DNA of 64,000 bases, from the NCBI RefSeq assembly GCF_030013595.1, contig NZ_CP122768.1; one strand, 5' to 3'. The stretch's first letter is position 1; each line of letters starts with the position of its first letter. The notes under the pieces are model-generated. The model worked only from the letters and a program-made list of their open reading frames with translations, was not told the DNA's origin and ran no database searches. Position numbers and translations under genes: made by a program. This stretch comes from Escherichia coli (lineage in GTDB: Bacteria > Pseudomonadota > Gammaproteobacteria > Enterobacterales > Enterobacteriaceae). Of the stretch, positions 16,678 through 58,586 are shown piece after piece.

Positions 16678-17301
16678 TTAATCCAGTTGCGTAATATCAA
16701 AAGCGGCGCGGTCGATCACCGCAATGATCTTTTTTATTTGTGCATCAGTGATATCGCTCTGGTTGACGCGTAAATCCAGCACCGCTTTAAAATTATCCAG
16801 CGCCCGCTTCATTTGCGGGTTCTGGCGGAGTGCAGCACCAACGCAACGCGCTTTGATGCGTTCTTCGATCATCTCCACCTGTTCGCGGTTTTCTTCCAGC
16901 CACTGCGCGCCCTGTTCGGTCAACGCAATCTGCTTCTTACCACCTTCCTCTTCGCGGATGGTAATCAGCGACTGCTCCTGCAGAAAATCCAGCGTCGGGT
17001 AGATGACACCCGGGCTTGGGGTGTAATTCCCCTGGGTTAGATTCTCAATCGCTTTAATCAATTCGTAACCGTGGCTGTCATCGCGCGAGAGAATATCCAG
17101 AATCACCAGACGCAATTCACCGTGACCAAAGAAACGCTGCCGACGACCGCCGCCGCGACCGTGGCGACCACCGCAGCATTGACCGTGTTCATGCTGGTGA
17201 CCGTGTCCGCAGTGCTCATGTTCTGACTTCTCACCTTTGCAGCAGCCTTCATGGCGTGGCTGGCCTTCATGTTTACAACACCCTTCGTGATGATGGCTCA
17301 T
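16678..17301 (-). CDS. yqjI: PadR-family transcriptional repressor YqjI (207 aa)
   Basis: His/Cys-rich N-terminus (MSHHHEGCCKHEGQPRHEGCC...) followed by PadR-like winged helix; divergent from yqjH. Confidence 0.85.
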   Translation of the reverse strand: MSHHHEGCCKHEGQPRHEGCCKGEKSEHEHCGHGHQHEHGQCCGGRHGRGGGRRQRFFGHGELRLVILDILSRDDSHGYELIKAIENLTQGNYTPSPGVIYPTLDFLQEQSLITIREEEGGKKQIALTEQGAQWLEENREQVEMIEERIKARCVGAALRQNPQMKRALDNFKAVLDLRVNQSDITDAQIKKIIAVIDRAAFDITQLD

Positions 17302-17577
17302 ATCAGCCTCCTTTTGCTTAATTAGATATATCTAATTTATGTCTAATATGAGCGCTTTTGCAAGTATAAAAATGATTTTTAAACGTGAATACACCTCACA
17401 TCCAGGCCGGATAATTCGTTCACGCCGTATCCAACAGCCTTGCTACGACGCTGAATGTCTTCTCATACTTCAGATATATCAGTTCTACAAATCGCTTGCA
17501 TTTATCATGATTAACAATCATTATCATTTGCGAAATTTATTTAGATATATCTGATTACTATCACGAAGGCGATAACA
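17302..17577. promoter_or_regulatory. yqjI/yqjH divergent control region with palindromic operators and Fur-box-like element
   Basis: Palindromes ttagatatatctaa (~17322-17336) and tttagatatatctga (~17540-17554); gattaacaatcattatc (~17508-17524) resembles a Fur box. Confidence 0.45.
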
Positions 17578-18390: not shown

Positions 18391-18825
18391 ATGTCTGGCC
18401 CTGCTGTCTCTTAATTGGTTGTGTAATTAATTGAAATTAAACAGGTAAATGCAATTTATTTTTTATCGATATGCCTTTTTGTATGCCTATTGGGAAAAAC
18501 ACGCTTTCTTCAACAGGGAATAAAAGCCGCTTTTATGGTGTTTTGAAACGGGTTTTAAAATGGCGCTCGTGGTGCTCTCGGGCACTCAATGGCGCTCTGT
18601 GATGTGGCTGGTGGTATGTGGCCGCCATGCATAATGGGGCTGATTTTGTTCATGGCCCGGCAGCGGGTGAGCATTTTTTACCATATTCAGGGTAAAAATG
18701 GGCGAAAAAGTTCATTTCTGGCATGGCCTGAAATGCCACGCAGCCCGCGCCGCGTGTGCTCTTGCCGGGGAAAACGGCGCGGAATAATGACCGCCACCCC
18801 ACCTTATGGCGGGCAGTCCCACGAA

Positions 18826-18905
18826 ATCCCGGTTATTTCCGTTTATTCCCGGATTAATCCCGCCTTCTCCCGCATTCTCCCGGCTGTTCCCGGAATTAAT
18901 CGCCG
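18826..18905. repeat. Iteron-like array of ~7 units (TCCCGG/TCCCGC, 10-11 bp period)
   Basis: aaatcccggttatttccgtttattcccggattaatcccgccttctcccgcattctcccggctgttcccggaattaat. Confidence 0.4.
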
Positions 18906-18916
18906 TGGGGTGGTGG

Positions 18917-19207
18917 TTATCTGGTGTGGTCGTAGTTCTGCCGTAGTCGTTCACCCTCAGCGCAATGACGCGGTTTTTTAACGCCGCTGGTAACGCAACG
19001 CGGGCAGGTCATGACGTGGCTGATATACGCATCACGGGCAGCCAGCCACGTCGCTGACGGGGCGCACATATCCGCCAGCGCCTGGCCGTTGCTGGTGGTG
19101 TTGTCTTCCGGCCATGTTTCGGGCTGGTGCGCTTCCGGTAAATCCGGTGCAGGTAATGCCCGGATAAACTCACACAATGCATCCGGCAGGCTGAATAACT
19201 TATGCAT
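18917..19207 (-). pseudogene. Probable remnant of a rep/helicase-like gene (96-aa ORF)
   Basis: Shares a ~40-nt segment (acatatccgccagcgYctggccgttgctg) and peptide motif SNGQ(A/T)LADM with the intact helicase gene at 20446-20490; no RBS. Confidence 0.3.
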
Positions 19208-19629
19208 AAATCTGATGTTCTGAATCGCTGAAAACGTGCGTTTTATGGCGTTTTTTCGTGATTTCTGCGTGTTCTGATGTGCTCATTTCGCTGTATCCCT
19301 TGTGTGGCGCGGGCTGCGCGTGTGTTTCGGTGTTCTTTTTTACCGCCAGAAAACGGTAATCAGGCATATAAACACGGCTGTAAGCCGCGCCGCGTCTGGC
19401 TTCGCGTGATTTTGTGCGTCAAAAAGTGCATTTTTGCCCTTAAAAAGCGTTATTCGTAATTCACTGGTAAATGCTCCGCAGGCCGCGCCATTGCTGGCCT
19501 TTTCGCTATTCTGTGTGGTTTTGCTGTTTAACCCGTTTTGCACACTAAAATTGCCTTGCATCCCGCGCCACGTAAGGGATTGCCGGGTTTTTATGTTGCG
19601 TTTTTTGCCGTGCGTAATATTGTGCAAGT

Positions 19630-19875
19630 TGGTGGGACTGGTGGGAACTGTGGGAACCGCCTAGAACCACGCGGCTTTCAGTGGTTCCCACCAGTTCCCA
19701 CGTTGGCTTTTTGTGGGAACCGTGGCGGTTATTTTTTGTTCTTTGCGGTTCCCACCAGTTCCCGCAGAGTTCCCACTCAAAAACGAACAATAATCATACT
19801 GATGGTTTTATTATTTACTGATTTATATATGTTTTATTTTTACGGTTCCCACAGTTCCCACCAGTCCCACCACTT
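19630..19875. repeat. Putative origin of replication: at least 11 GTTCCCAC/GTGGGAAC octamer iterons in both orientations flanking an AT-rich stretch
   Basis: Octamers at 19631, 19640, 19649, 19683, 19693, 19712, 19747, 19757, 19768, 19844, 19853; AT-rich tract 19776-19840; immediately downstream of the helicase gene. Confidence 0.6.
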
Positions 19876-19906
19876 TTTCAGTTTTTAAAAACGCAATTTT
19901 TGTGAA

Positions 19907-21745
19907 TTATTCATCAATTGCGAATAACAATGCATTCTGGCCGATGGCGTAAACGCGGTGTTTCTCCCCGTTAACGGAAACGCGTTTTGTGTATCGGCGT
20001 TTCCCGTCCGTGTCGCGGTCAACAATCGCGCCAGCATCGTCAAGACTGGCCGCTATGCGTTTCAGGTCGTAGCCGCTGGCCGCCTCACATAGTGCTTCCG
20101 GTAAAAACCAGTAAACCCGCTCGCCGTTGCTCCCCGGTCGCCACCATCCGGCGCGGGTGCTTACTGGTTCGCTGTATGTGCTGCCCCCTTCAAAGCGTGA
20201 AGCATGGCGGGCGATAAACCCCGCGACGGCCCGGAGTATTTTCACGTCCTCCGATTGCCCCCGCCCACGATAGTCCGCCCACGCATCAAACATCGCTTTC
20301 ACTGCCTCCAGTGCTTCGCCCTGTTTCCACGGCAGAATCCCGGCAGTTATCGCCATTTCCCCGGCCAGTGCGCACAGTGTGAAACGCGCGGCGGCGCGTG
20401 CCTCCTGTCCGGTGCTTACGGGGAATTGTTCGCGCAGTATGGCGTACATATCCGCCAGCGTCTGGCCGTTGCTGTCGGTGCTGGTGGTGTCACTTTCATT
20501 GCGGGAAATCAGCCAGCGCACAAACTCCGGCCCGGCGTGGCCGTAATGGGTAGCCGCATTACCGCGCAGTGTTTCGGCAAATTTCCGGCCTGCTCCCCGG
20601 CGTTCTGTGTCGTTGTCGGGGTTGTGGGGTAGTGCCATTCCGTGAAGACAGTCAAATGCCCCGTAAAGCCGCTGTGCCGGAATATCCAGTAACCGCATTT
20701 CCTGCCCGGCCTTGATGCGCTGGCCGCCGCTTTCCATGTGTTTACCCACGGTCATTTCCCCGGTGGAAATAATCATGGTGCGCCATGTGTTGACCGGGCG
20801 GGCCATGCCGGACACCTTGCCACGCTGACGGCCTGTTCCGTTGCCAAGCTGATAAATCAGCCCGCCAATATCTCTGGCCGGGGCTTCGCCAATTTCATCC
20901 AGTATCAGCGCGGTATCGTTCCGCATGGTTGCCAGCCCTTCAAGCCCGGTGCTGGTGGCGTTCCAGTTGCGTTTAAAGTTGCGGGGTTCTCCCCATACGC
21001 TACAGGCCACCAGCGCCCCCACGCTTTTCCCGCTGGAACTGTCGCCCATGAAATGAAATCCGCCGCTGTCCACATCAAGCAACCACAGCAACGGCCCGGC
21101 GAGCGATGCACACACGGCCAGCATGGTTACCGGGTTTCCCCGGCATAATGCGGCCACGTTGTCGCGCCAGCCCTCCGGCGTTCCTGCGGTGGCGTACTCC
21201 TGTGAGCCTGCTTCTGTTGACTGAAACACCACATCACCATCACCGATAACCCCGCCCGGCATGACAAACAGGGCCGGGGAGTGCCACCCGGTGGCCGTGG
21301 CCGCGAGCGCCCGGCGTTTTGGTGCTGACTCCATGATGTATTCAGTCAGTGCCTGCCGTTGTTTGTAGGGAATGGTAACGCCCATGCGTAGCAGTTCCTG
21401 CCGGAGTTCTCCGCCGTCTCCGGCGAGCATTTCCATCGGTGCGGCCCATTCCCGCCACTGGCCTGACGGCGTGAGAAAACGGAGTAATCGCCCGTAGTTT
21501 TCGTCTTTGCTGTCGCTGGTCATGGCGATGACCTCCAGCGGGGAACATATAAACGTGTCTGTGTTGGTTGAGTCGCGCACGCCGTGCCAGTAAAGGCCGG
21601 GTTTCAGTATCTGGCCGCCGTCCACCTGTACATGCTGCGAATAAGTGGCGTAGCCCGGACGCGCCGGGCTGACTTTGGGGTGTTTCTTGCGTGGTGGTTT
21701 TCTCTTCCCGGATGTGACCGGGGTTTTAGTGGTTGTCCGGGTCAT
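19907..21745 (-). CDS. Replicative helicase, P4-alpha-like/SF3-type (612 aa)
   Basis: Walker A (GDSSSGKS) and Walker B (ALILDEIGE) motifs; overlaps primase stop by 20 nt; followed by iteron origin. Confidence 0.75.
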   Translation of the reverse strand: MTRTTTKTPVTSGKRKPPRKKHPKVSPARPGYATYSQHVQVDGGQILKPGLYWHGVRDSTNTDTFICSPLEVIAMTSDSKDENYGRLLRFLTPSGQWREWAAPMEMLAGDGGELRQELLRMGVTIPYKQRQALTEYIMESAPKRRALAATATGWHSPALFVMPGGVIGDGDVVFQSTEAGSQEYATAGTPEGWRDNVAALCRGNPVTMLAVCASLAGPLLWLLDVDSGGFHFMGDSSSGKSVGALVACSVWGEPRNFKRNWNATSTGLEGLATMRNDTALILDEIGEAPARDIGGLIYQLGNGTGRQRGKVSGMARPVNTWRTMIISTGEMTVGKHMESGGQRIKAGQEMRLLDIPAQRLYGAFDCLHGMALPHNPDNDTERRGAGRKFAETLRGNAATHYGHAGPEFVRWLISRNESDTTSTDSNGQTLADMYAILREQFPVSTGQEARAAARFTLCALAGEMAITAGILPWKQGEALEAVKAMFDAWADYRGRGQSEDVKILRAVAGFIARHASRFEGGSTYSEPVSTRAGWWRPGSNGERVYWFLPEALCEAASGYDLKRIAASLDDAGAIVDRDTDGKRRYTKRVSVNGEKHRVYAIGQNALLFAIDE

Positions 21746-22769
21746 GCTCCATTTCCCATAGCATCAAATCGTTAAAGTCGGAAAGGTCTGGTGATGCACC
21801 GGGCGGCCATTCCGGGAATGTGACGTAACACCCGGCCAGCAATGCGGCTTCGTTGGCTGCTCTGGAACCGGGGTTATCTTTTGATGCCCGGTCATCATCC
21901 CCGGCGATAACGAGAGATATGCGCGAGCCGTATCGCTCACGCAGCGCCATAGCCACATGTTTAAGGTTTCCCGCATTCATGGCACACACCACGGCCATGA
22001 CGTTCCAGTACTGGAGAAGGGCGGCCCCGGTGGCCCACCCCTCACACACGTAAACGTCATGTTCCGGCGCTTCCGGGGCCATCAGGTCAAAGCTCCCCAT
22101 AACATGGAAAGCCCCCTGCACCTGACCATCACGGAGAAACATTTTTCGACCGTCCGGGCTGATAATCTGCACGTTCACCACTTCGCCGCATACGTTGTAC
22201 AGCGGGACAAGCAAATCATTACCTGACTGATACAGATTGCCGGGCTGTAGCCGTTTTTTCATGAGATAGGGATGAGAAGGGTTTGCCACCTCCGCCCGGC
22301 CAAGCAACTCAAAGGCCCGGCAGGCGGTCAGTTTCTGGCGCTGGTGGCGCTGTTGCTGTTCCCGCTGGCGGAGTCTGGCCGCCTCCTGTTCTGCGGCCTG
22401 TACCCGCACCCGTTGCGCCTCCCGTTGTTCGCGGGTCATTACATCAGGTTTGCCCAGCGCGGGCAGGCACAGCCCCAGCCTGTCCGCCACAATACGGGCG
22501 GCATCAGTCTGCCGCACATTCCATAAATAAGCCCCCAGCGCCACAAGGTCGCCGCCGCTGTCCCCGGTGGCGAAGTCGTGCCAGCATCCGTCCACCAGCG
22601 AGACGGAAAAACTGCCCGCGTGACGGTCTGCACGCGTGGGGTTACGACACACCCATTCAGTGGCCTGCCGTTTACCTTCGGGCAGCCATTCGGGAACAAG
22701 GATTTCTGCATGTTGTGCCGCCACTGCGGCAACGCTACGGATTGCGTTAATCGTGGCTATGTCACGCAT
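21726..22769 (-). CDS. DNA primase with zinc-binding and TOPRIM domains (about 347 aa from MRDIATIN start)
   Basis: Zn-binding region C..HAGSFSV..GCWHDFATGDSGGDLVALGA; TOPRIM motifs VYVCEGWATG and LVIAGDDD; start chosen at ATG 22769 overlapping upstream stop (ATGCGTGA); longest ORF extends to 22919. Confidence 0.7.
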   Translation of the reverse strand: MRDIATINAIRSVAAVAAQHAEILVPEWLPEGKRQATEWVCRNPTRADRHAGSFSVSLVDGCWHDFATGDSGGDLVALGAYLWNVRQTDAARIVADRLGLCLPALGKPDVMTREQREAQRVRVQAAEQEAARLRQREQQQRHQRQKLTACRAFELLGRAEVANPSHPYLMKKRLQPGNLYQSGNDLLVPLYNVCGEVVNVQIISPDGRKMFLRDGQVQGAFHVMGSFDLMAPEAPEHDVYVCEGWATGAALLQYWNVMAVVCAMNAGNLKHVAMALRERYGSRISLVIAGDDDRASKDNPGSRAANEAALLAGCYVTFPEWPPGASPDLSDFNDLMLWEMEHDPDNH

Positions 22770-23076
22770 GTTGCCCGTCCTCCCTGATTTCCCCGGTGCG
22801 GCAGCGCCAGTTATACGCCTCCACAACCTCACTGAATCCGGCCACAAGTTCAGCCGTAACAGCGATGGAATCGCCCAGGCTGCGTAGTTCATTTGGACCA
22901 AGAGCATTATTGTCGCCAATTACCGAAAGTAGCCGCCCTGTGCCAGCCAGCGCATCAAGCAGTTTGCGGGCGCAGTAATCCGCATCATCAAACATTGCGC
23001 GGGCTTCCTGTGCGTCTGCGTTTTTGATGGCCGCAACCAGTAGTTCAGGTATCCGGGTGTTATACATATCACGCAT
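22762..23076 (-). CDS. Hypothetical small protein (104 aa)
   Basis: ORF MRDMYNTRIPELLVAAIKNADAQEARAMFDD...; start overlaps upstream stop and stop overlaps primase start via identical CATGCGTGA junctions. Confidence 0.5.
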   Translation of the reverse strand: MRDMYNTRIPELLVAAIKNADAQEARAMFDDADYCARKLLDALAGTGRLLSVIGDNNALGPNELRSLGDSIAVTAELVAGFSEVVEAYNWRCRTGEIREDGQHA

Positions 23077-23365
23077 GGCTTACCTCCCCGGCCTGCTGGT
23101 CGTAACACTCCATCAGTTCGGCCATACAGCCAATGAGGGCAGGGGCTGTCTGTAGAAATCCGGCTAACTGGCAGATCTCGTCTCTGGAATAGGTGATGGG
23201 GTTTTCGCGTAACTGGCTTTCCTCCAGTGCCTTACCAACAAAGGCAATCCCCGCAAGTAAATTCACTCTGTGCCAGTCTGCATCAACGCGCAGACTCCAG
23301 CGGCTTTCTTCGTCCGGCATACTGCTCATGGCGGCTTTCATTGACTCACGCAGACAATCACGCAT
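23069..23365 (-). CDS. Hypothetical small protein (98 aa, start at internal Met MRDCLRES)
   Basis: ORF linked to neighbours by the same CATGCGTGA stop/start overlap; longest ORF extends to 23446. Confidence 0.45.
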   Translation of the reverse strand: MRDCLRESMKAAMSSMPDEESRWSLRVDADWHRVNLLAGIAFVGKALEESQLRENPITYSRDEICQLAGFLQTAPALIGCMAELMECYDQQAGEVSHA

Positions 23366-23555
23366 GACGCACCCCCTGAGCCGGAACGCGGCCAGCAAAC
23401 AGCAACACAAAATCACGCGCCAGCATACGGCGGGCGGTTGTTTCATCGGGTGCGTTGACGGATTCGCGGTGTGGGCGGTCGTTCAGGTCGGAACGGCGAA
23501 CAGCCAGAAAGTGAAAGGTAAATTCAGGGTGTAACGGGGTTGGGGTCGTAGCCAT
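23358..23555 (-). CDS. Hypothetical small protein (65 aa)
   Basis: Strong Shine-Dalgarno AAGGAGG 8 nt upstream of ATG at 23555; the longer 201-aa ORF has junk-like composition upstream of this Met. Confidence 0.5.
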   Translation of the reverse strand: MATTPTPLHPEFTFHFLAVRRSDLNDRPHRESVNAPDETTARRMLARDFVLLFAGRVPAQGVRHA

Positions 23556-23582
23556 TCTGGCAGCCTCCTTTTGCAAATTTAA

Positions 23583-23621
23583 GGAGTCACCGCCTGAGTT
23601 CCTACACTCATAAGGGGCGGT
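23583..23621. promoter_or_regulatory. Inverted repeat GTCACCGCC-N21-GGCGGTGAC upstream of the small-gene operon (candidate operator or 5' hairpin)
   Basis: Perfect 9-bp inverted repeat 26-70 nt upstream of the 23555 start codon. Confidence 0.3.
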
Positions 23622-23744
23622 GACGCTGGCAGGGGTAGGAATACCGGCGCAAAAGGAAACCGGCCAGCCTTTCGGCTGCCCCACCAGCGCCACCATAGAT
23701 ACAGTGCGGGTCTTGCCGCTGTGCATGGGTGCGCGATGGCACGA

Positions 23745-23775
23745 CACAAAAAAAGACGCTGGGCGCGTCTGTGTC
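23745..23775 (-). terminator. Rho-independent terminator downstream of alpA
   Basis: Minus-strand agacgcgcccagcgtct hairpin followed by TTTTTTT. Confidence 0.45.
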
Positions 23776-23981
23776 GCCTTTTGCTCATTAAACGGGTTCC
23801 TACGCCCGGCTGGTGGATTTACACCAGCGGGGGAAATATAACGCCCACCAGCGATGGCAGGCAAGCAATATTTGCGGTTGCCGCCCATCCCGTGGGGCGT
23901 GTGGTGGTTGTTTTGGGCGTGAGAACGCCCCGGCCCTGTTACGGGCCTTTCTGGCATTTTCATAATGATTATCGCGGTTGG

Positions 23982-51533: not shown

Positions 51534-51572
51534 AAATCGCTGCTTAATTTACTGTCTTAATCAAGAAACCGA

Positions 51573-51601
51573 AGTTGTAGCTGGCTTCGGTTTTTATTTT
51601 G
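51573..51601 (+). terminator. Rho-independent terminator of ribB
   Basis: aaaccgaagttgtagctggcttcggttttta hairpin plus T-tract. Confidence 0.5.
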
Positions 51602-51770
51602 CCCTGCTATGCAAGATGTTAATTCCGCTTCTCTTTCTATGAGAAAATTTCATTAATATCAGGCATTCTTTTTCATTATGATCAAAATCATATAATTGTT
51701 CCGTTATTATGCGACCATATGAATATATCCGAAAAAGGATATGTGAAATTTATGCGCTAAATGTTTAGTA

Positions 51771-51965
51771 TTGTTAAATATTAAGGGTAAAAGGATGTTT
51801 ATCGCCTGGTACTGGATTGTATTGATTGCTCTGGTTGTGGTGGGTTATTTCCTGCATTTGAAACGTTATTGTCGGGCGTTTCGCCAGGACAGAGACGCAC
51901 TGCTTGAAGCACGGAACAAATACTTAAACAGTACGAGAGAAGAGACAGCCGAAAAGGTAGAATAA
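51771..51965 (+). CDS. Small single-pass membrane protein (64 aa; start uncertain)
   Basis: ORF with one hydrophobic helix (FIAWYWIVLIALVVVGYFL) and basic C-terminus; not firmly identified. Confidence 0.3.
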   Translation: MLNIKGKRMFIAWYWIVLIALVVVGYFLHLKRYCRAFRQDRDALLEARNKYLNSTREETAEKVE

Positions 51966-52022
51966 GGCGTTAGTGAAGCTGGCAGAAGTTGTCCATGCGC
52001 TGGACAACTTCTGATGTTGCTT

Positions 52023-52796
52023 TTAACCAATTCCCGCCGTTTGTAGCAGCACTAAACTGAATCCCATCACTGACATTCCACATAGTACGCCATAGCTGGG
52101 GTTATTATTAGGGTCAATCTCTTTGGCGAGCGGCATTAATTCATCAACCGAGAGCGCCACCATAATTCCTGCAACCGCCGCCATGATTGCCGCCATGACC
52201 ACCGGGGAAATCATGCTACCGAGGATTAACCACGCCAGCACACCACCAAGAATTTCTGCCAATCCAGAAATCCCCGCCCAAAGAATCGCGGTGCGTTTAG
52301 AACCCGTTGCTGCATAAACCGGGCCTGCAACCGCCAGACCTTCAGGGATATTGTGCAACGCGACGGCCAGTGCGATGCCAAATCCCAGCTCCAGGTTGCT
52401 GCTCGCAGTGACAAAGGTGGCAATCCCTTCCGGGAAGTTATGCAGACTGATGCCGAGAGTGAGCAGAATGGCTGTGCGCTTGATCGATTTTGGCAACGGC
52501 TGCACCGATTTTTGCATTAAATCCTGCGGATGCGCATGTGGCAACATGCGGTCCAGGCCAAAATAGCCAAGCAGACCGAAGATAAACATTCCATAACCCA
52601 ACACAGGCGACATTCCTTCGGCGGCTAGTGCGGCAGGAAGCATTTCCATTAATGAGATGAGCAACATGATCCCCGCCGCAAATCCTAGCGAAAACGCCAG
52701 TAAGCGGTTCGAGGGTTTTTGCCCGAGAACGCCGAGAAACGCGCCAATAAACGTGGCTGCCCCCGCCAGTATGGTCAGAATGAGAGGTACTGACAT
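52023..52796 (-). CDS. zupT: Zinc transporter ZupT (257 aa)
   Basis: [25 protein letters not shown]... ZIP family; start at internal Met of the longer ORF. Confidence 0.85.
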
Positions 52797-52911
52797 CGAC
52801 AACTCCTTATAAATCTTCACCTTCAGGCAGATCGTCAAAATAACTGATGATCATCATCATTGTTATCCGGGTTCTTACTCCGCCGAACAAGCGTATTGTG
52901 AGGATATCAAA

Positions 52912-53727
52912 ATGACACCTTTAGTTAAGGATATCATCATGTCTTCAACACGTATGCCAGCATTGTTTTTAGGTCACGGTAGTCCGATGAACGTGCTGGA
53001 AGATAATTTGTATACCCGCAGCTGGCAGAAGTTGGGGATGACATTGCCACGCCCGCAAGCGATTGTGGTGGTTTCGGCTCATTGGTTTACCCGTGGAACA
53101 GGAGTGACCGCGATGGAGACGCCGCCCACGATTCATGATTTTGGTGGCTTCCCGCAGGCGCTGTACGACACCCATTATCCGGCTCCTGGATCACCGGCTT
53201 TGGCTCAGCGATTGGTTGAGCTGTTAGCGCCAGTACCTGTCACACTGGATAAAGAAGCCTGGGGCTTTGACCACGGTTCCTGGGGCGTGCTGATTAAGAT
53301 GTATCCTGACGCGGATATCCCGATGGTGCAGTTGAGTATCGACAGTAGCAAACCCGCCGCCTTGCATTTCGAAATGGGGCGCAAACTGGCAGCGCTGCGG
53401 GATGAAGGAATAATGTTGGTCGCCAGCGGTAACGTGGTGCATAACCTGCGTACGGTGAAGTGGCACGGTGATAGTTCACCGTATCCTTGGGCGATGTCGT
53501 TTAATGAGTATGTGGAAGCGAATCTGACGTGGCAAGGGCCGGTAGAGCAGCATCCTCTGGTGAATTATCTCGACCATGAAGGTGGCGCGTTATCTAACCC
53601 AACGCCAGAGCACTATCTGCCGTTGTTGTATGTGTTAGGTGCGTGGGATGGGCAGGAGCCAATTACCATTCCGGTCGATGGTATAGAAATGGGCAGTTTA
53701 AGTATGTTGTCGGTGCAGATAGGCTAA
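52912..53727 (+). CDS. ygiD: Extradiol-type 4,5-DOPA dioxygenase family protein YgiD (271 aa)
   Basis: LigB-family aromatic ring-opening dioxygenase motifs (LFLGHGSPMN...). Confidence 0.8.
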   Translation: MTPLVKDIIMSSTRMPALFLGHGSPMNVLEDNLYTRSWQKLGMTLPRPQAIVVVSAHWFTRGTGVTAMETPPTIHDFGGFPQALYDTHYPAPGSPALAQRLVELLAPVPVTLDKEAWGFDHGSWGVLIKMYPDADIPMVQLSIDSSKPAALHFEMGRKLAALRDEGIMLVASGNVVHNLRTVKWHGDSSPYPWAMSFNEYVEANLTWQGPVEQHPLVNYLDHEGGALSNPTPEHYLPLLYVLGAWDGQEPITIPVDGIEMGSLSMLSVQIG

Positions 53728-53734
53728 TAAAAGA

Positions 53735-53762
53735 ACCCGAAGCCAGAACGACTGGCTTCGGG
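53735..53762. terminator. Bidirectional hairpin between ygiD and dsbI
   Basis: cccgaagccag-aacgac-tggcttcggg. Confidence 0.45.
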
Positions 53763-53772
53763 TGTTGCTGAG

Positions 53773-54444
53773 TTAGCCTCTGATGATTTTAAGCGCCCAT
53801 GCGCCACTCATAATGACCAGCAGCACCAGACACATACCAAAAGCCAGCATACAAGCCTGAGCCATATTCATAAAATGCCATGGTGGTAGCAGATACCAGC
53901 CTTCAGATTGCTGATACATTTCCACAAACCACTGTTGCGTGCTGCTCAGTGTGACGCCATCAGGAACGATTGGTGCGTCATAGCCACAATCCCCGGTAGG
54001 CTTGAACCAATTTGGTGCCCACTGTGCCAGCGGCAGGTTAAAGGGAAAAGTTGGATCGGTAGAGCAACCCTGTACGCCAAACAGTGAATCGGGATCCGGA
54101 TTATGTACTGCATGGTGGATATCGTTCAGTTTGAGCGAAAACTTCAGTCCCAAAATGCTGCCGTAAAATGCCATCACGCAGCCAATTAGCTTTAGGATGA
54201 TGTTCTTTGGGTTGATCGCTGCAACCAATCCTCCAATAACCATCACAAACATGGCGTAGCGAATGTATACACATTGCTCACAGGGTGCCATGTAGAGATA
54301 GATCTGGAAGAAAGCGTGCGCCAGGATAATTAACGCGCCCATCGCAACGGCCATTAACAACCACAACAAGCGTTGCTCCTGCCATCTGACCAGTGTGTCA
54401 ACTGGTGATGTGCGAAGATCTTTCCACATTCCCTTAATACCCAT
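53773..54444 (-). CDS. dsbI: DsbB-like thiol:disulfide oxidoreductase DsbI (223 aa)
   Basis: Membrane protein with CEQC motif in first periplasmic loop; follows dsbL. Confidence 0.8.
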
Positions 54445-54458
54445 AGCCTGTTTCCCTG

Positions 54459-55127
54459 TTATTTGCTTGCTAACTCACGGATAAGGTCTGCCATCGCGTC
54501 GATGGATTTGATGCTCTTGGTGTAGATCAAGTACTTACCATTAACGACATAGGCTGGAACCCCCTGGATTTTGGCGACATCATAAGAGGCTTTCCATTTT
54601 TCCAGTGTTTCTTGAACCGCTGGTTCTTTCAGTGCCGCTTCAAAATCCGCCTGACTCATACCTGCGGCATCCAGACCGGTTTTGATAAAAGCAGCCGGAT
54701 CTTTACCGTCAGACCAGCGTTCTTTTTTGTCGTGATAAGCCGCGTAGTAGGCAAACTTGGCTTTCTTAAACTGAGAGTTAGCATCAAATAAGGAAATGCC
54801 TGCTGCTTTATCTTTATTGATCAAGACCGCAAAGACTTCGCTTGCTTGTTTGCCGTATTCACCTTTGGTTTCCAGATGGAACGGCGTGAAAGCAACGATA
54901 TCTTTCACTTTTTCCGATACCGGACCGGTAACCGCTTTGTCGTACTTGTAACAGAACGGGCAGGCGTAGCTGAATACCTTAATCAGCGTTTTGTCGGCAT
55001 TCGGAATAGGTTTTTCCAGAACCATGTAATCCGTGCCTTCGGTAAATGCAGAAGCGGTAAATGAAACAGCCAAAGCTGCGGTAAGCAGTATGGTTTTAAA
55101 TAGTGATGAGATCCCTAATTTCGACAT
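54459..55127 (-). CDS. dsbL: DsbA-like periplasmic thiol:disulfide oxidoreductase DsbL (222 aa)
   Basis: Signal peptide and thioredoxin-fold CPFC active site. Confidence 0.8.
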
Positions 55128-55144
55128 TTTTATTCCCTTCTTAA

Positions 55145-56941
55145 TTATTTGAACATCTGTTGTGGACGGACTAACAGTGCACGATAGTGAGTCTGATTGG
55201 GTTTATCTGACAGCACGTCGATTTCCACTTTCACTTCTTTGGTTTTGTAATCGATTTCGTTCAACTTACCGACGGTTGGCTGCCCGACATCGAACAAATG
55301 AATAGAACCACCGAAGCCAAACATGGTGTTACGGTCGGCTTGATATTCAATGATGGAGGTAATCGGGCTATAGAAATCGTAGCCACGTTCTTTACCGTAT
55401 TCCCACACTTGCTGAACGGTGCCTTTCTTCTCATCAATCTTATATTCCACAAAGCGGGAGTATTTCATGGTTGGTAAGGCAGGTTGTTCCAGATGACGCC
55501 CATCGCCATTATCAAAAATGGTGAGCGTTCCTTTGCTGGAAATCCAGGCGGTATGCTGGGTGTAGGTAAAGTCGAAGTCTGAGTTTTCGCACAGGCCATT
55601 TTCGTTACAGGTAATTGGCTTACCGTTAGCATCAACCGGTTTCAGCAGCTTGCTGGCCAGTGGTTTTTCCCAGCCTTTAGACGGCGCAAGTATCCATTTC
55701 ACTTGTTTATCACGACCAATTTTCACAACACCCTGGTGACGAGAAGAGAGGATGATTGAGTCGTCTTTTGCGTCATAGGCGATGGAGTTGACGTGTGCCC
55801 AGTTACGCCCTGGTCCTACACCCAGCGCGTCGCCAAATGGTGTGTCTGGTTCCAGTTTGGCCTGTTGTCCTGCATGGGCAAGGTCAACGTTAACGCAAAC
55901 TGCACCTGCATCCAGCGCGCCGAGCAGTGCATCGCGTTTCGGATCGAGGATCTTGGTCAGATCCCATACATCGACAACGCGACCAGATTTATCGACTTCG
56001 AGGATATGGTCACGAATGGTGGTGACGTGTACGCCGTCATCGCGACGGTAATTGCTCTTACCTACGCGCAACAATACTGTGCCATTAGGCGTCTCAATGG
56101 ACTCATGAGTGGCGTCAGCAAATCCGCGCGGTAGTTTGTGATCTTCGAGCACCTGCCCCATCATGTCGAACTCGTACCAGTGCTGACCTTGTACAGCGGT
56201 AAAGGTGCCGCGTGGCGTTTCACGGATGCCCATCAGATAACCACGCTTGTTGATATCGCGGTCACGACCATCGTAGAAAGTGTCTTGATCCAGCCACCAG
56301 CGGTATTCACCTTCGGTATCGACGATGAAAGTAAAGGGCGCGATATCAAAAGGTAGTGCGCCGGTTGCCGGACCCGCATCAAGGATACCGGCATTTTTAT
56401 CTTTCTCACCATGCCAGTGGAGATCGGAACCTTGGGCGGTAAAGGTGTGGGTATTAACCAGATAGAGGCGATCTTCAAAACCCGGTGCGACTTTAATAAC
56501 TTTGGTCTGTTGTAAATCGGAGATAGAGCGGTTATCCATGTAATTATTGACGATGGCCGAAGTATGCACCACATAATCATCTTTCATGACCTTGCCGTTT
56601 TCTTTCCACTCAACGGTCACTTTGTTAGCAAATTTCTGATAAAGACCAAAAATCGGTACACCATCGTAAGTTTTTAGTGATTCCTGACCCACGGGATAGC
56701 TGATTTCTACGCCTTTTTCGCCCTTCCCATGGACGGTAACTTTGACATCAGAAATGACATGGCTATCTAAGTCAACCAAAGCGGTCAGTGGTGCATTGCC
56801 GTAGGGATCGACAATGACCGCACCCAGTTGCCCGGCAGGTGGTGCGGGTTTAAAACCTGCTGCCATCACCCCCGGTGCTGACAAACCCAGAGTTATCGCC
56901 ACAGCTCCGGCTACCAGAGTTTTTCTATATTTATCAAACAT
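55145..56941 (-). CDS. assT: Periplasmic arylsulfate sulfotransferase AssT (598 aa)
   Basis: Signal peptide and beta-propeller-like arylsulfotransferase sequence; first gene of assT-dsbL-dsbI. Confidence 0.85.
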   Translation of the reverse strand: MFDKYRKTLVAGAVAITLGLSAPGVMAAGFKPAPPAGQLGAVIVDPYGNAPLTALVDLDSHVISDVKVTVHGKGEKGVEISYPVGQESLKTYDGVPIFGLYQKFANKVTVEWKENGKVMKDDYVVHTSAIVNNYMDNRSISDLQQTKVIKVAPGFEDRLYLVNTHTFTAQGSDLHWHGEKDKNAGILDAGPATGALPFDIAPFTFIVDTEGEYRWWLDQDTFYDGRDRDINKRGYLMGIRETPRGTFTAVQGQHWYEFDMMGQVLEDHKLPRGFADATHESIETPNGTVLLRVGKSNYRRDDGVHVTTIRDHILEVDKSGRVVDVWDLTKILDPKRDALLGALDAGAVCVNVDLAHAGQQAKLEPDTPFGDALGVGPGRNWAHVNSIAYDAKDDSIILSSRHQGVVKIGRDKQVKWILAPSKGWEKPLASKLLKPVDANGKPITCNENGLCENSDFDFTYTQHTAWISSKGTLTIFDNGDGRHLEQPALPTMKYSRFVEYKIDEKKGTVQQVWEYGKERGYDFYSPITSIIEYQADRNTMFGFGGSIHLFDVGQPTVGKLNEIDYKTKEVKVEIDVLSDKPNQTHYRALLVRPQQMFK

Positions 56942-57425
56942 GGATATATCTCCTTATATAACGCAAATATATAATAATGATGAATATCGACTGTTGAGGT
57001 GGTGCTAATAAATTTGTTTTGTGAATTAAAATGTATTAATAATAATCGTTATGAATATTTTTTACTGGTTTTAGATTTTTTGTATTTCTCTGTAACAAAT
57101 ATTTTCTTTTGGTCGATACTAGGTGGGCAATATATCAATAACAATATTCAATATTGTGTAGTGTGATCCCAGCGACATTGTTTTTTAATTATTAAATCTA
57201 TTTTTGATGCGGTGTTGGATATAAATAAACTTATAAAACAATAGGTTACCAAGTGATTTTATTGATTAATTTAATTACAGTATCGCTTACATATGACGAT
57301 TTAATATTAAATTAGGAATTAATGTTAAATAAAAGTGATGGATGTGATTGATTATATATAGATGGGGGTGATGATTTGCGAAGTATAATAAATTGCCCCG
57401 GTAAACGGGGCAATATTGAACAGTA
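56942..57425. promoter_or_regulatory. ~480 bp strongly AT-rich intergenic region upstream of assT, including the ygiC terminator hairpin (~57392-57413)
   Basis: Very low GC with curved-DNA-like A/T tracts; hairpin ttgccccggtaaacggggcaa next to the ygiC stop. Confidence 0.4.
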
Positions 57426-58586
57426 TTACTCAACAAAAATATGCGGATAAAACCGAGACATATCCTGGGTGATCAATGCACGGTCTTCACGAATGCCAAT
57501 TCCGGCAGGTTGATCGTTCACCAGCCAGCTACCAATCAGCATATAGCTGTCGCCGAATTTCGGTAACGGGTGGAATTGCTGAACAATCATCCCTTCTTCG
57601 CCATACGGACCTTCCGCTGCTTCAATGGTTTTGCCGTTCTCAATGATCGACACGTTTGCGCCTTCACGGGAGAAGATCGGTTTAACCACATATTTTTCCA
57701 TTTGCGGATGATCATCTTCCGCAAAATAAGCGGGCAGCAGGTTCGGGTGATTCGGGAACATCTCCCACAGTAGCGGTAGAAGCGCTTTGTTGGAGATAAT
57801 GCTCTTCCACGCCGGTTCCAGCCAGCGTACGCCTGCATCCTCCAGCTTGGTGGAGAACATCTCACGCAACATAAATTCCCACGGATACAGCTTGAACAGG
57901 TTGGAAATCACCTGATCCTGTAAATCCGTGAACTGACCTTTTTCACCTAACCCGATATCGTCGATGTAGAGGAACTCGGTAGCGATTTCAGCTTCCGTCG
58001 CGCAGTCCTGCAAATACTGAATGGTTCCGCGATCTTCCACCGTGTCGCGACAGCAGGTGAGATGCAGCAACTGGAAGCCATACTGTTCACGCAGCTCGAC
58101 AAAGCGATCGATCAGCTTCTCTTGCAGACTGTTAAACTGGTCGCTGCCTTCCGGCAGGTTACCGGCGTTAAGCTGATCTTCCAGCCAGATCCACTGAAAG
58201 AACGCCGCCTCGTATAGTGACGTTGGCGTATCGGCGTTATTTTCCAGAAGTTTAGGTTCGCCAGTACCATCCCACGCCAGATCAAGACGCGAATATAGCG
58301 ATGGCTGGTGAGTCAGCCATGACTGGCGCACAAAACTCCAGGTGTGTTTTGGAATGCGGAATTTGGTCATCAGCTCATCGCTGGCGATCACTTTTTCAAC
58401 CACTTTCAGGCACATCTGGTGCAGTTCGGCGGTGACTTCTTCCAGCTTTTCAACCTGAGCGAGGGTCAACTTGTAGTAAGCATCTTCACACCAGTACGGT
58501 TCGCCGTACATGGTGTGAAAATTGAAACCGTATTCGTGGGCTTTTTCGCGCCAGTCCGGGCGCTCGGTAATACTGACTCTTTCCAT
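57426..58586 (-). CDS. ygiC: Glutathionylspermidine synthase-like protein YgiC (386 aa)
   Basis: ATP-grasp-like GspS homologue; synteny ygiB-ygiC. Confidence 0.85.

What the first reader, a model, noticed from the sequence alone, without database searches (positions are those of the whole stretch)
53773..57425. assT-dsbL-dsbI islet with a ~480-bp AT-rich upstream region
An arylsulfate sulfotransferase with its dedicated DsbA/DsbB-like pair sits between ygiD and ygiC. This cluster is known from uropathogenic E. coli and, as I recall, is absent from K-12. The upstream 56942-57425 region is extremely AT-rich, a plausible silencing target or complex promoter.
Basis: partly seen in the sequence, partly recalled or inferred. 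Interest (0 to 1): 0.35.

Follow-up and report, generated by a model that had tools for sequence, protein, structure and literature searches.

The report
Known assT-dsbL-dsbI operon, AT-rich promoter
This is the already characterised three-gene operon for a periplasmic aryl sulfotransferase and its private disulfide-forming enzyme pair. It is present in about a quarter of sequenced E. coli and absent from K-12, and its very AT-rich upstream region holds a conserved promoter and comes in two sharply different versions.

Summary
Three intact minus-strand genes, assT (55145-56941), dsbL (54459-55127) and dsbI (53773-54444), lie between ygiD and ygiC. A 484-bp spacer (56942-57425) precedes them at 27% G+C, the only stretch of that size in the 64-kb window below 33%.

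AssT matches the solved CFT073 enzyme and keeps all its catalytic residues. DsbL matches solved DsbL, and DsbI passes NCBI's DsbI model.

The cluster is in 1508 of 5426 complete E. coli genomes.

It is not a UPEC-specific mobile island. E. albertii, E. whittamii and cryptic Escherichia lineages carry it at the same site, it has no mobility signatures, and the enteroaggregative strain 042 and animal isolates also have it.

Silencing of the AT-rich region is inferred, not shown. The Salmonella Typhi orthologue is repressed by H-NS and activated by LeuO, and the CFT073 chromosomal copy is silent in laboratory culture.

Added here:
- a promoter module conserved with fixed spacing across five genera;
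- two discrete spacer alleles in E. coli, about 78% identical, with nothing between;
- a different chromosomal position for the operon in Salmonella and Citrobacter.

The system is already known, so interest is low to moderate.

The parts
55145..56941 (-). assT (astA): periplasmic PAPS-independent aryl-sulfate sulfotransferase precursor, 598 aa with a 27-aa signal peptide
   Evidence: Pfam PF05935 (454 bits) and PF17425. PDB 3ELQ/3ETS/3ETT match at E = 0 over residues 28-598. His436, His252, His356, Asn358, Arg374, Thr501 and Cys418/Cys424 (mature numbering) are all present (residue list from PMC13426309).
54459..55127 (-). dsbL: DsbA-like periplasmic dithiol oxidase with a CPFC active site, starting 17 bp after the assT stop
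   Evidence: Pfam PF01323. PDB 3C7M (E. coli DsbL) E = 2e-127 and 3L9U (Salmonella DsbL) E = 1e-121. Scores far below the DsbA equivalog cut-off (78 vs 279 bits). CPFC at residues 56-59.
53773..54444 (-). dsbI: membrane DsbB paralogue that reoxidises DsbL, starting 14 bp after the dsbL stop
   Evidence: NCBIfam NF003304 DsbI equivalog, 416 bits against a cut-off of 212. Pfam PF02600. CEQC at residues 55-58 and a second Cys pair at 127/153.
53735..53763 (.). 12-bp-stem G+C-rich hairpin between the convergent dsbI and ygiD stops: operon terminator, probably bidirectional
   Evidence: Terminator scan, inverted repeat I13 at 100% complementarity, sequence read.
56942..57425 (-). 484-bp AT-rich ygiC-assT spacer (G+C 0.27): regulatory region of the operon, here in its minority form (allele A)
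   Evidence: Composition. No Rfam hit. No ORF conserved between alleles. Two discrete alleles among E. coli genomes.
57392..57414 (-). ygiC terminator hairpin (TTGCCCCG-loop-CGGGGCAA, then a T-run)
   Evidence: Terminator scan. The stem is identical and the loop differs between alleles A and B.
57262..57331 (-). Distal conserved block found only in Escherichia (TTTATTTAACATTAAT...AAATCGTCATATG.AAGCGATA.TGTAATTAAA); candidate regulator or nucleation site of unknown partner
   Evidence: About 90% identical between alleles A and B while the neighbouring segments are 69-76%. Conserved in E. whittamii and the SCPM lineage but not alignable to Salmonella or Citrobacter.
57162..57177 (-). TGTCG-N6-TCACA: conserved CRP-like site with an invariant GATCACA, centred about 60.5 bp upstream of the predicted start
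   Evidence: Fixed spacing and an invariant right half in 17 sequences from 5 genera. Weak on its own: matches with 2 mismatches are as frequent as chance in the window (21 found, 25.7 expected).
57116..57144 (-). Predicted sigma-70 core promoter: -35 TTGTTA (57144-57139), 17-bp spacer, -10 TAGTAT (57121-57116). Predicted start near 57109, giving a leader of about 168 nt
   Evidence: Read from the sequence. TTGTnn-N17-TA(C/G)TAT is conserved in Escherichia, Pseudocitrobacter, Citrobacter, Salmonella and Intestinirhabdus. At 8 of 12 consensus matches it falls below the scan's reporting threshold. The start site is not mapped.
56942..57006 (-). Proximal leader segment, 63 of 65 bases identical between alleles A and B, containing the Shine-Dalgarno AAGGAG (56955-56950)
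   Evidence: Alignment. AAGGAGATATATCCATG is also conserved in Salmonella and Citrobacter.
52912..53727 (+). ygiD (4,5-DOPA extradiol dioxygenase), flank on the dsbI side
   Evidence: Pfam LigB and RefSeq annotation of matching genomes.
57426..58586 (-). ygiC (glutathionylspermidine-synthase family), flank on the promoter side
   Evidence: Pfam GSP_synth at 547 bits and RefSeq annotation.

Best explanation
The region is the known assT-dsbL-dsbI operon. AssT is exported to the periplasm and moves a sulfuryl group from a phenolic sulfate ester to another phenol by a ping-pong mechanism through a transient sulfo-histidine (His436). Its one essential disulfide (Cys418-Cys424) is introduced by DsbL, which the membrane protein DsbI reoxidises. 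All of this is established for the CFT073 proteins, which are essentially identical to those encoded here.

The three genes are read from one promoter region in the 484-bp AT-rich spacer and end at a strong hairpin shared with convergent ygiD. Within the spacer, a conserved TTGTTA-N17-TAGTAT promoter sits behind a conserved TGTCG-N6-TCACA site. This is inferred from conservation. The surrounding DNA, at 27% G+C, most likely keeps the operon silent through H-NS binding until an antagonist such as LeuO, or a specific growth condition, relieves it. That part is inferred from the Salmonella Typhi orthologue and from the silence of the CFT073 copy in culture.

In evolutionary terms the cluster is an old resident of the ygiC|ygiD site in the genus Escherichia and is missing from a large part of E. 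coli, including K-12. It is not a recently acquired mobile islet.
For: Gene identity. Mechanism of the proteins: PMC13426309, PMC7810732, PMC6067686.

Operon layout: gene gaps of 17 and 14 bp, terminators, and 'tri-cistronic operon' in PMC7810732.

Presence and absence: 1508 of 5426 genomes carry the cluster, and K-12 derivatives are empty with a 37-bp spacer.

Ancestry: the cluster occupies the same site in E. albertii, E. whittamii, Escherichia sp. MOD1-EC7003 and the SCPM lineage, and its divergence tracks that of the flanking genes. G+C of the genes is 0.45-0.49, close to the neighbours. There are no terminal repeats, integrase or tRNA. The only 'plasmid' hits are mislabelled records of 0.7-4.9 Mb.

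Promoter module: it is conserved with fixed spacing in 17 sequences from 5 genera, whichever chromosomal site the operon occupies.

Silencing: the composition is extreme. H-NS represses and LeuO activates the S. Typhi cluster (PMC4264507). The CFT073 chromosomal copy is not expressed under assay conditions, yet is reported as up-regulated in the urine of infected mice (PMC7810732).
Against: No H-NS, LeuO or CRP binding data exist for this E. coli sequence, and no start site has been mapped. The -35 and -10 hexamers match only 8 of 12 consensus positions. The CRP-like site is no better than chance by sequence alone.

Only about 90 bp of the core and about 35-45 bp at the ribosome-binding site align with the Salmonella and Citrobacter upstream region, so regulation may not transfer.

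G+C of 0.27 is also roughly what unconstrained DNA drifts to under the E. coli AT-biased mutation spectrum, so AT-richness need not be selected.

The K-12 'empty' 37-bp spacer shows no similarity to either end of the cluster. It looks instead like the REP-type hairpin in the Salmonella and Citrobacter ygiC-ygiD spacer, so a simple deletion does not explain the empty allele.
Confidence: 0.8

Rival explanations
1. The cluster is a horizontally acquired virulence islet specific to uropathogenic E. coli, and the AT-rich DNA is the foreign-DNA signature that draws xenogeneic silencing.
For: It is absent from K-12, O157:H7 and many commensal-type genomes. The literature describes DsbL/DsbI as lacking from commensal or enteric pathotypes (PMC6067686). 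The operon occupies a different site in Salmonella and Citrobacter, so it has moved at least once.
Against: It sits at the same site in four other Escherichia species-level lineages, with divergence in proportion to the flanks. The coding G+C is near that of the host. It has no integrase, tRNA or flanking repeats. It is present in EAEC 042 and in pig, poultry, duck, marmot and wastewater isolates. Only the spacer is AT-rich, not the genes.
Confidence: 0.1
2. The AT-rich spacer is mostly unconstrained filler. Only the roughly 90-bp core promoter and the ribosome-binding region matter. Its composition and its 22% divergence between alleles reflect neutral decay towards mutational equilibrium plus a barrier to recombination, not selection for silencing or for different regulation.
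For: Divergence is concentrated in three spacer segments (69-76% identity), while the core, the distal block and the proximal leader are conserved. Substitutions are mostly transversions, with 34 A<->T changes out of 103, which keeps G+C at 0.27-0.28 in every lineage. There is no ORF, RNA family or stable structure. Other spacers in the same window are equally 'switched', such as nfeF|nfeR at 82%.
Against: A 70-bp distal block far from the promoter is conserved across Escherichia. The length is held at 483-484 bp in four lineages. H-NS would bind DNA of this composition whatever produced it. This reading is compatible with the best explanation rather than exclusive of it.
Confidence: 0.35
3. 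The spacer hides an unannotated small protein gene or a small RNA.
For: The spacer is unusually long, and mechanical ORFs of 20-55 aa exist on both strands.
Against: Every such ORF is broken by stops in allele B and in E. whittamii. No Rfam match was found at E <= 1. The predicted leader folds no better than shuffles, with z = +0.98.
Confidence: 0.03

Closest known systems
assT(astA)-dsbL-dsbI operon of uropathogenic E. coli CFT073 (Grimshaw et al. 2008; Malojcic et al. 2008, 2014; Totsika et al. 2009, as cited in PMC7810732 and PMC13426309)
   Same: The three genes have the same order and the same ygiC|ygiD site. The proteins are essentially identical: tblastn rounds to 100%, and nucleotide identities are 97.3%, 99.6% and 99.9%. 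All catalytic and redox residues are kept.
   Different: The 484-bp upstream spacer is a different allele, only 78-80% identical to that of CFT073. CFT073 also carries a fimbrial operon between yqiD and ribB that this window lacks.
assT-dsbL-dsbI cluster of Salmonella enterica serovar Typhi, regulated by H-NS (negative) and LeuO (positive) (Gallego-Hernandez et al. 2012, as summarised in PMC4264507)
   Same: The genes are orthologous: 86-88% amino-acid identity to S. arizonae. The upstream region is AT-rich, and the module TGTCG-N6-TCACA-N17-TTGTTn-N17-TACTAT and the ribosome-binding site are conserved.
   Different: In Salmonella and Citrobacter the operon lies between yqiD and ribB, not between ygiC and ygiD. 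The rest of the upstream region is not alignable. The primary paper could not be read here, so its mapped start sites could not be compared.
'Switched' intergenic regions / horizontal regulatory transfer in E. coli (Oren et al. 2014, as described in Thorpe et al. 2018, PMC5890482)
   Same: Two discrete, highly divergent spacer alleles (<90% identity) occupy one locus between well-conserved genes, and their distribution does not follow the flanking gene similarities.
   Different: The two alleles are still homologous along their whole length and have the same length. They share three conserved blocks, so this is deep allelic divergence rather than replacement by unrelated DNA. An effect on expression has not been tested.

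Membership tests
PAPS-independent aryl-sulfate sulfotransferase (ASST, Pfam PF05935) | C-terminal beta-propeller sulfotransferase domain plus an N-terminal Ig-like domain | tested here: met
   PF05935 at 454 bits over residues 146-587, and PF17425 at 100 bits over residues 42-127. The match to 3ELQ covers the full length.
PAPS-independent aryl-sulfate sulfotransferase (ASST, Pfam PF05935) | Catalytic His436 with His252, His356, Asn358, Arg374 and Thr501 | tested here: met
   All six residues are present at the mature-protein positions; the residue list comes from PMC13426309.
PAPS-independent aryl-sulfate sulfotransferase (ASST, Pfam PF05935) | Periplasmic location and the essential Cys418-Cys424 disulfide | tested here: met
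   A 27-residue signal-like N-terminus precedes the first residue of the crystallised chain. Cysteines are at mature positions 418 and 424. Formation of the bond itself cannot be tested in silico.
PAPS-independent aryl-sulfate sulfotransferase (ASST, Pfam PF05935) | Sulfuryl-transfer activity between phenolic substrates | not testable with these tools
   Shown for the near-identical CFT073 enzyme (PMC13426309).
DsbL/DsbI dedicated oxidase pair | A DsbA-fold protein with a CPFC motif that is distinct from housekeeping DsbA | tested here: met
   3C7M at E = 2e-127. DsbA equivalog score of 78 bits against a cut-off of 279. CPFC at residues 56-59.
DsbL/DsbI dedicated oxidase pair | A DsbB paralogue that meets the DsbI equivalog model and has two periplasmic Cys pairs | tested here: met
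   NF003304 at 416 bits against a cut-off of 212. CEQC at residues 55-58 and Cys127/Cys153.
DsbL/DsbI dedicated oxidase pair | Encoded immediately downstream of assT in one operon | tested here: met
   Gaps of 17 and 14 bp on the same strand, with a single terminator after dsbI.
H-NS-silenced, LeuO-antagonised promoter (as at S. Typhi assT) | An extended AT-rich tract over the promoter | tested here: met
   484 bp at G+C 0.27, the lowest in the 64-kb window.
H-NS-silenced, LeuO-antagonised promoter (as at S. Typhi assT) | Sequence homology to the S. Typhi regulatory region | tested here: inconclusive
   Only the core of about 90 bp and the ribosome-binding site align (75-85%). The distal half is unrelated. 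The comparison used S. arizonae and Citrobacter, not Typhi.
H-NS-silenced, LeuO-antagonised promoter (as at S. Typhi assT) | H-NS binding and repression, and LeuO-dependent activation | not testable with these tools
   The only support is indirect: the CFT073 chromosomal copy is silent under laboratory conditions (PMC7810732).
Mobile genomic island | Integrase or transposase, tRNA or att site, flanking direct repeats, atypical composition of the cargo | tested here: not met
   There are only three ORFs, all accounted for. There are no boundary repeats. Coding G+C is 0.45-0.49 against 0.51-0.53 for the neighbours. No true plasmid copies were found.
Switched intergenic region (Piggy / HRT definition) | Two or more IGR clusters below 90% identity between the same conserved gene pair | tested here: met
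   261 genomes are at >=95% and 1247 at 60-80% identity to the window allele, with none between. Flanking ygiC is 98.7% and assT 97.3% identical.
Class I CRP-dependent promoter | A TGTGA-N6-TCACA site centred near -61.5 | tested here: inconclusive
   The right half and its extension GATCACA are invariant. The left half is TGTCG or TGTTG. The geometry gives about -60.5 from a predicted, unmapped start. By sequence alone the site is no better than chance.

The most novel reading that the evidence does not exclude
The two spacer alleles may be old, non-recombining regulatory variants of one operon that give different silencing or induction behaviour. Allele A, the window type, is in 261 genomes. 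Allele B, the CFT073/UTI89/ST131/042 type, is in 1247. They are about 22% divergent but share three conserved blocks and the same 484-bp length. Each is closer to the allele of a different Escherichia species (A to E. whittamii at 89%, B to the SCPM lineage at 84%) than to the other, which suggests a trans-species polymorphism or introgression confined to the promoter. Together with the operon's alternative chromosomal position in Salmonella and Citrobacter, this would make assT a natural experiment in regulatory rewiring of an H-NS-silenced locus.
Probability: 0.2. Interest if true: 0.45.

Novelty: already known. Interest (0 to 1): 0.2.

Why it matters
The operon is a textbook case of a substrate-dedicated disulfide-bond system, and its enzyme is used as a read-out in DsbA-inhibitor screens and in biocatalytic sulfation. 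Finding it here adds no new biology.

This analysis adds three pieces of context:
- It corrects the habit of calling the cluster UPEC-specific. Its distribution follows lineage, and it looks ancestral to Escherichia.
- It gives a concrete, testable promoter model.
- It shows that the strains studied so far (CFT073 and other B2 strains) carry only one of two very different upstream alleles, so expression results from CFT073 may not hold for strains like this one.

Tried and rejected
1. Small gene or RNA in the spacer. Rfam at E <= 1 found nothing. All mechanical ORFs are broken in the other allele and in E. whittamii. The predicted leader has no excess structure, z = +0.98. Rejected.

2. Mobile-element scars. 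No terminal direct or inverted repeats and no tandem arrays beyond a 7-bp CAATATT mini-repeat were found. Rejected.

3. Plasmid-borne copies. The three 'plasmid' hits are records of 0.7-4.9 Mb, which are mislabelled chromosomes. Rejected.

4. The distal half of the Escherichia spacer as a carried-over piece of the yqiD upstream region from a Salmonella-like arrangement. The local alignment score was below the shuffle mean (z = -0.6), while the positive control gave z = 34. Rejected.

5. The CRP site judged by sequence alone. Matches with 2 mismatches are at chance frequency in the window. It is kept only as a conservation-based hypothesis.

6. Reading the primary regulation and structure papers (PMC3347046, PMC2258680, PMC2614742). 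None is held, so the mapped S. Typhi start sites could not be compared.

7. Phylogroup assignment of the allele A carriers. This is not possible from strain names. It was only shown that 042 (commonly assigned to phylogroup D) and B2 strains carry allele B, and that the neighbourhood is mosaic.
Full report
**Observation.**
- assT at 55145-56941 (598 aa)
- dsbL at 54459-55127 (222 aa)
- dsbI at 53773-54444 (223 aa)

Convergent ygiD (52912-53727, +) lies on one side. Co-oriented ygiC (57426-58586), followed by ygiB and tolC, lies on the other. The spacer 56942-57425 is 484 bp at G+C 0.269, against 0.521 for the window. It is the only place in the 64 kb where a 484-bp window falls below 0.33.

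**Identity of the genes.**
- AssT carries the Arylsulfotrans and Arylsulfotran_N domains. It matches the solved CFT073 enzyme (3ELQ, 3ETS, 3ETT) at E = 0 from residue 28 onward.
- In mature-protein numbering it keeps His436, His252, His356, Asn358, Arg374, Thr501 and the Cys418/Cys424 pair. The review PMC13426309 gives these as the sulfo-histidine nucleophile and the sulfuryl-binding residues, and it reports a single essential disulfide.
- DsbL matches the solved E. coli and Salmonella DsbL structures (3C7M, 3L9U). It has a CPFC motif and scores far below NCBI's DsbA cut-off.
- DsbI passes the NCBIfam DsbI equivalog model at 416 bits against a cut-off of 212 and has the CEQC pair and a second Cys pair.
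- Gene gaps are 17 and 14 bp. A 12-bp-stem hairpin follows dsbI, and a second hairpin ends ygiC.

The published mechanism therefore applies directly. It comprises periplasmic ping-pong sulfuryl transfer, with DsbL introducing the disulfide and DsbI reoxidising DsbL (PMC13426309; PMC7810732; PMC6067686).

**Distribution.**
Among 5426 complete E. coli genomes, 1508 (28%) carry the whole cluster. The rest match only the ygiD and ygiC ends, 340 bp apart. The K-12 derivatives TG1, NCM3722 and Origami2 are in the empty class. In TG1 the two stop codons are separated by 37 bp containing a short hairpin.

CFT073, UTI89, ST131, O2:K1:H7 APEC and O6:K2:H1 strains carry the cluster. So do the enteroaggregative strain 042 and isolates from pigs, ducks, chickens, a marmot and wastewater. 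The collection is biased towards clinical isolates, so 28% is not a population frequency.

**Acquired islet or ancestral?**
A protein-guided scan of one genome per species, followed by tblastn of the neighbours, shows the cluster at the same ygiC|ygiD site in five lineages:
- E. albertii
- E. whittamii
- Escherichia sp. MOD1-EC7003
- a divergent lineage labelled E. coli SCPM-O-B-8794
- Pseudocitrobacter

The nucleotide divergence of the cluster tracks that of the flanking genes. Coding G+C (0.45-0.49) is close to that of the neighbours. There is no integrase, tRNA or boundary repeat, and the only 'plasmid' hits are mislabelled records of 0.7-4.9 Mb. The parsimonious reading is an old resident of Escherichia that is missing from part of E. 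coli.

One loose end remains. The K-12 37-bp spacer resembles neither end of the cluster. It looks like the REP-type hairpin in the ygiC-ygiD spacer of Salmonella and Citrobacter, so the empty allele is not a simple deletion product.

**Position in other genera.**
In Citrobacter, S. enterica subsp. arizonae and Intestinirhabdus the same three genes lie two genes away, between yqiD and ribB. The blocks [assT-dsbL-dsbI] and [ygiD-zupT-yqiD] are exchanged without inversion.

The E. coli yqiD-ribB spacer is homologous to the first 118 nt or so of the Salmonella yqiD-assT spacer (z = 34). This marks where the Salmonella copy begins. In CFT073, 042 and AVS0533 that same yqiD|ribB site holds a four-gene fimbrial operon that this window lacks. 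In Budviciaceae and Edwardsiella the cluster is in unrelated surroundings.

**Anatomy of the AT-rich spacer.**
An alignment of 14 upstream regions and a pattern search show one module kept with fixed spacing in all Enterobacteriaceae copies, whichever site they occupy. The module is TGT(C/T)G-N6-TCACA, then 17 nt, then TTGTnn, then 17 nt, then TA(C/G)TAT. Its window coordinates are:

| Element | Window coordinates |
|---|---|
| TGTCG | 57177-57173 |
| TCACA | 57166-57162 |
| TTGTTA (-35) | 57144-57139 |
| TAGTAT (-10) | 57121-57116 |

I read this as a sigma-70 promoter with a start near 57109 and a leader of about 168 nt, preceded by an upstream regulator site. The geometry (centre about -60.5) and the invariant GATCACA fit a class I CRP site. 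By sequence alone, however, such a match is no better than chance, so this is a hypothesis.

Two further blocks are conserved within Escherichia. One is distal, at about 57331-57262. The other is the last 65 nt before the ATG, which includes AAGGAG at 56955-56950.

The spacer holds no Rfam family and no ORF that survives in other alleles. Its leader has no excess structure.

**Silencing.**
I could not test protein binding.
- The composition is extreme.
- The review PMC4264507 states that H-NS regulates the S. Typhi assT-dsbL-dsbI cluster negatively and LeuO regulates it positively, depending on growth conditions.
- PMC7810732 reports that the chromosomal CFT073 copy is not expressed under its assay conditions, although it was reported as up-regulated in the urine of infected mice.

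A caveat applies. G+C of 0.27 is also about what unconstrained DNA reaches under the AT-biased mutation spectrum of E. coli (general knowledge). AT-richness may therefore be a by-product, although H-NS would bind such DNA in either case.

**Two spacer alleles.**
Searching the 484 bp alone gives a bimodal result:

| Identity to the window spacer | Genomes |
|---|---|
| >=99% | 259 |
| 95-99% | 2 |
| 80-95% | 0 |
| 76-80% | 1247 |

The window carries the minority allele (A). CFT073, UTI89, ST131 and 042 carry allele B.

The divergence is confined to the spacer. Between the window and CFT073, four consecutive 100-bp windows of ygiC just upstream of its last 75 bp (57501-57900) are 100% identical. 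The spacer windows are 69-86% identical, and assT then returns to 94-100%.

Over 42 kb of the window compared with CFT073, coding genes are mostly 97-99% identical and most spacers 95-100%. The only comparable outliers among regions longer than 100 bp are nfeF|nfeR (82%) and the yqiD region (73%).

Changes between the alleles are mostly transversions (61 against 42 transitions, 34 of them A<->T). G+C stays at 0.27-0.28 in every Escherichia allele.

Allele A is closest to the E. whittamii spacer (89%). Allele B is closest to the SCPM lineage (84%). The assT coding sequences show no such split. The neighbourhood is strongly mosaic, with patches of 86-94% identity in assT, dsbL and ygiD that differ from strain to strain.

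This fits the known phenomenon of 'switched' intergenic regions, or horizontal regulatory transfer, in E. coli (PMC5890482). Whether the two alleles differ in expression is untested.

**Verdict.**
The points added here are the promoter module, the dimorphic spacer, the alternative chromosomal position and the likely ancestral status. These are details of a known kind, not a new kind of system.

Noticed in passing
window 56942-57425: The spacer exists in E. coli as two discrete alleles of the same length that are about 78% identical: 261 genomes have the window type and 1247 the CFT073 type. The flanking ygiC and assT are 97-100% identical. Allele A is closer to the E. whittamii spacer than to allele B.
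   Followed up: yes
L008-L014, L019 (assT at about 6001) compared with window 51534-57425: In Citrobacter, Salmonella arizonae and Intestinirhabdus the same operon, with the same promoter module, lies between yqiD and ribB rather than between ygiC and ygiD. The two blocks are swapped without inversion.
   Followed up: yes
window 51534-52022; L059 12667-18382; L060 25457-31183: The yqiD|ribB site that holds assT in Salmonella holds a four-gene chaperone-usher fimbrial operon in CFT073, 042 and AVS0533. It is empty in this window. The adjacent small gene yqiD exists as two alleles only 73% identical, and the genomes examined that carry the fimbrial operon all have the divergent form.
   Followed up: partly
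window 18406-26713: An 8.3-kb segment absent from CFT073 abuts a tRNA with anticodon CAT (26713-26788). It encodes a tyrosine integrase, a Toprim-domain protein, a DUF927 protein and an Ash-family protein, which looks like a P4-like integrative satellite element.
   Followed up: partly
window about 17250-17550 (nfeF|nfeR spacer): This is another AT-rich divergent-promoter spacer, only 82% identical between this strain and CFT073 while its flanking genes are 97.5% identical. It is a second 'switched' intergenic region in the window.
   Followed up: no
window 54300-54900, 55600-55900 and 56200-56900; ygiD 53100-53400: Short patches of 86-93% identity interrupt otherwise 99-100% identical coding sequence in pairwise comparisons, and they differ from strain to strain. 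This points to frequent recombination with divergent Escherichia donors around this locus.
   Followed up: partly
L001 1629-1665 (K-12 TG1 ygiD-ygiC spacer): The 37-bp 'empty site' contains the hairpin TACCGGATGGC-ACTC-GCCATCCGGTA (assT orientation), which resembles the REP-type hairpin in the Salmonella and Citrobacter ygiC-ygiD spacer. It shares nothing with either end of the assT cluster, so the origin of the empty allele is unexplained.
   Followed up: partly
L014 and L019, upstream of assT (alignment A1 columns 698-883): C. amalonaticus and Intestinirhabdus carry insertions of about 185 and 130 bp, with a G+C-rich hairpin (GGCCCCGAAGGGG), in the predicted assT leader between the conserved promoter and the ribosome-binding site. 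This looks like a small repetitive element.
   Followed up: no
hit H9 (NZ_CM185152.1); hits H131-H133: One E. coli genome has an IS3-family insertion splitting assT. Three records filed as plasmids in PLSDB that carry the cluster are 0.7-4.9 Mb long and are evidently chromosomal.
   Followed up: no
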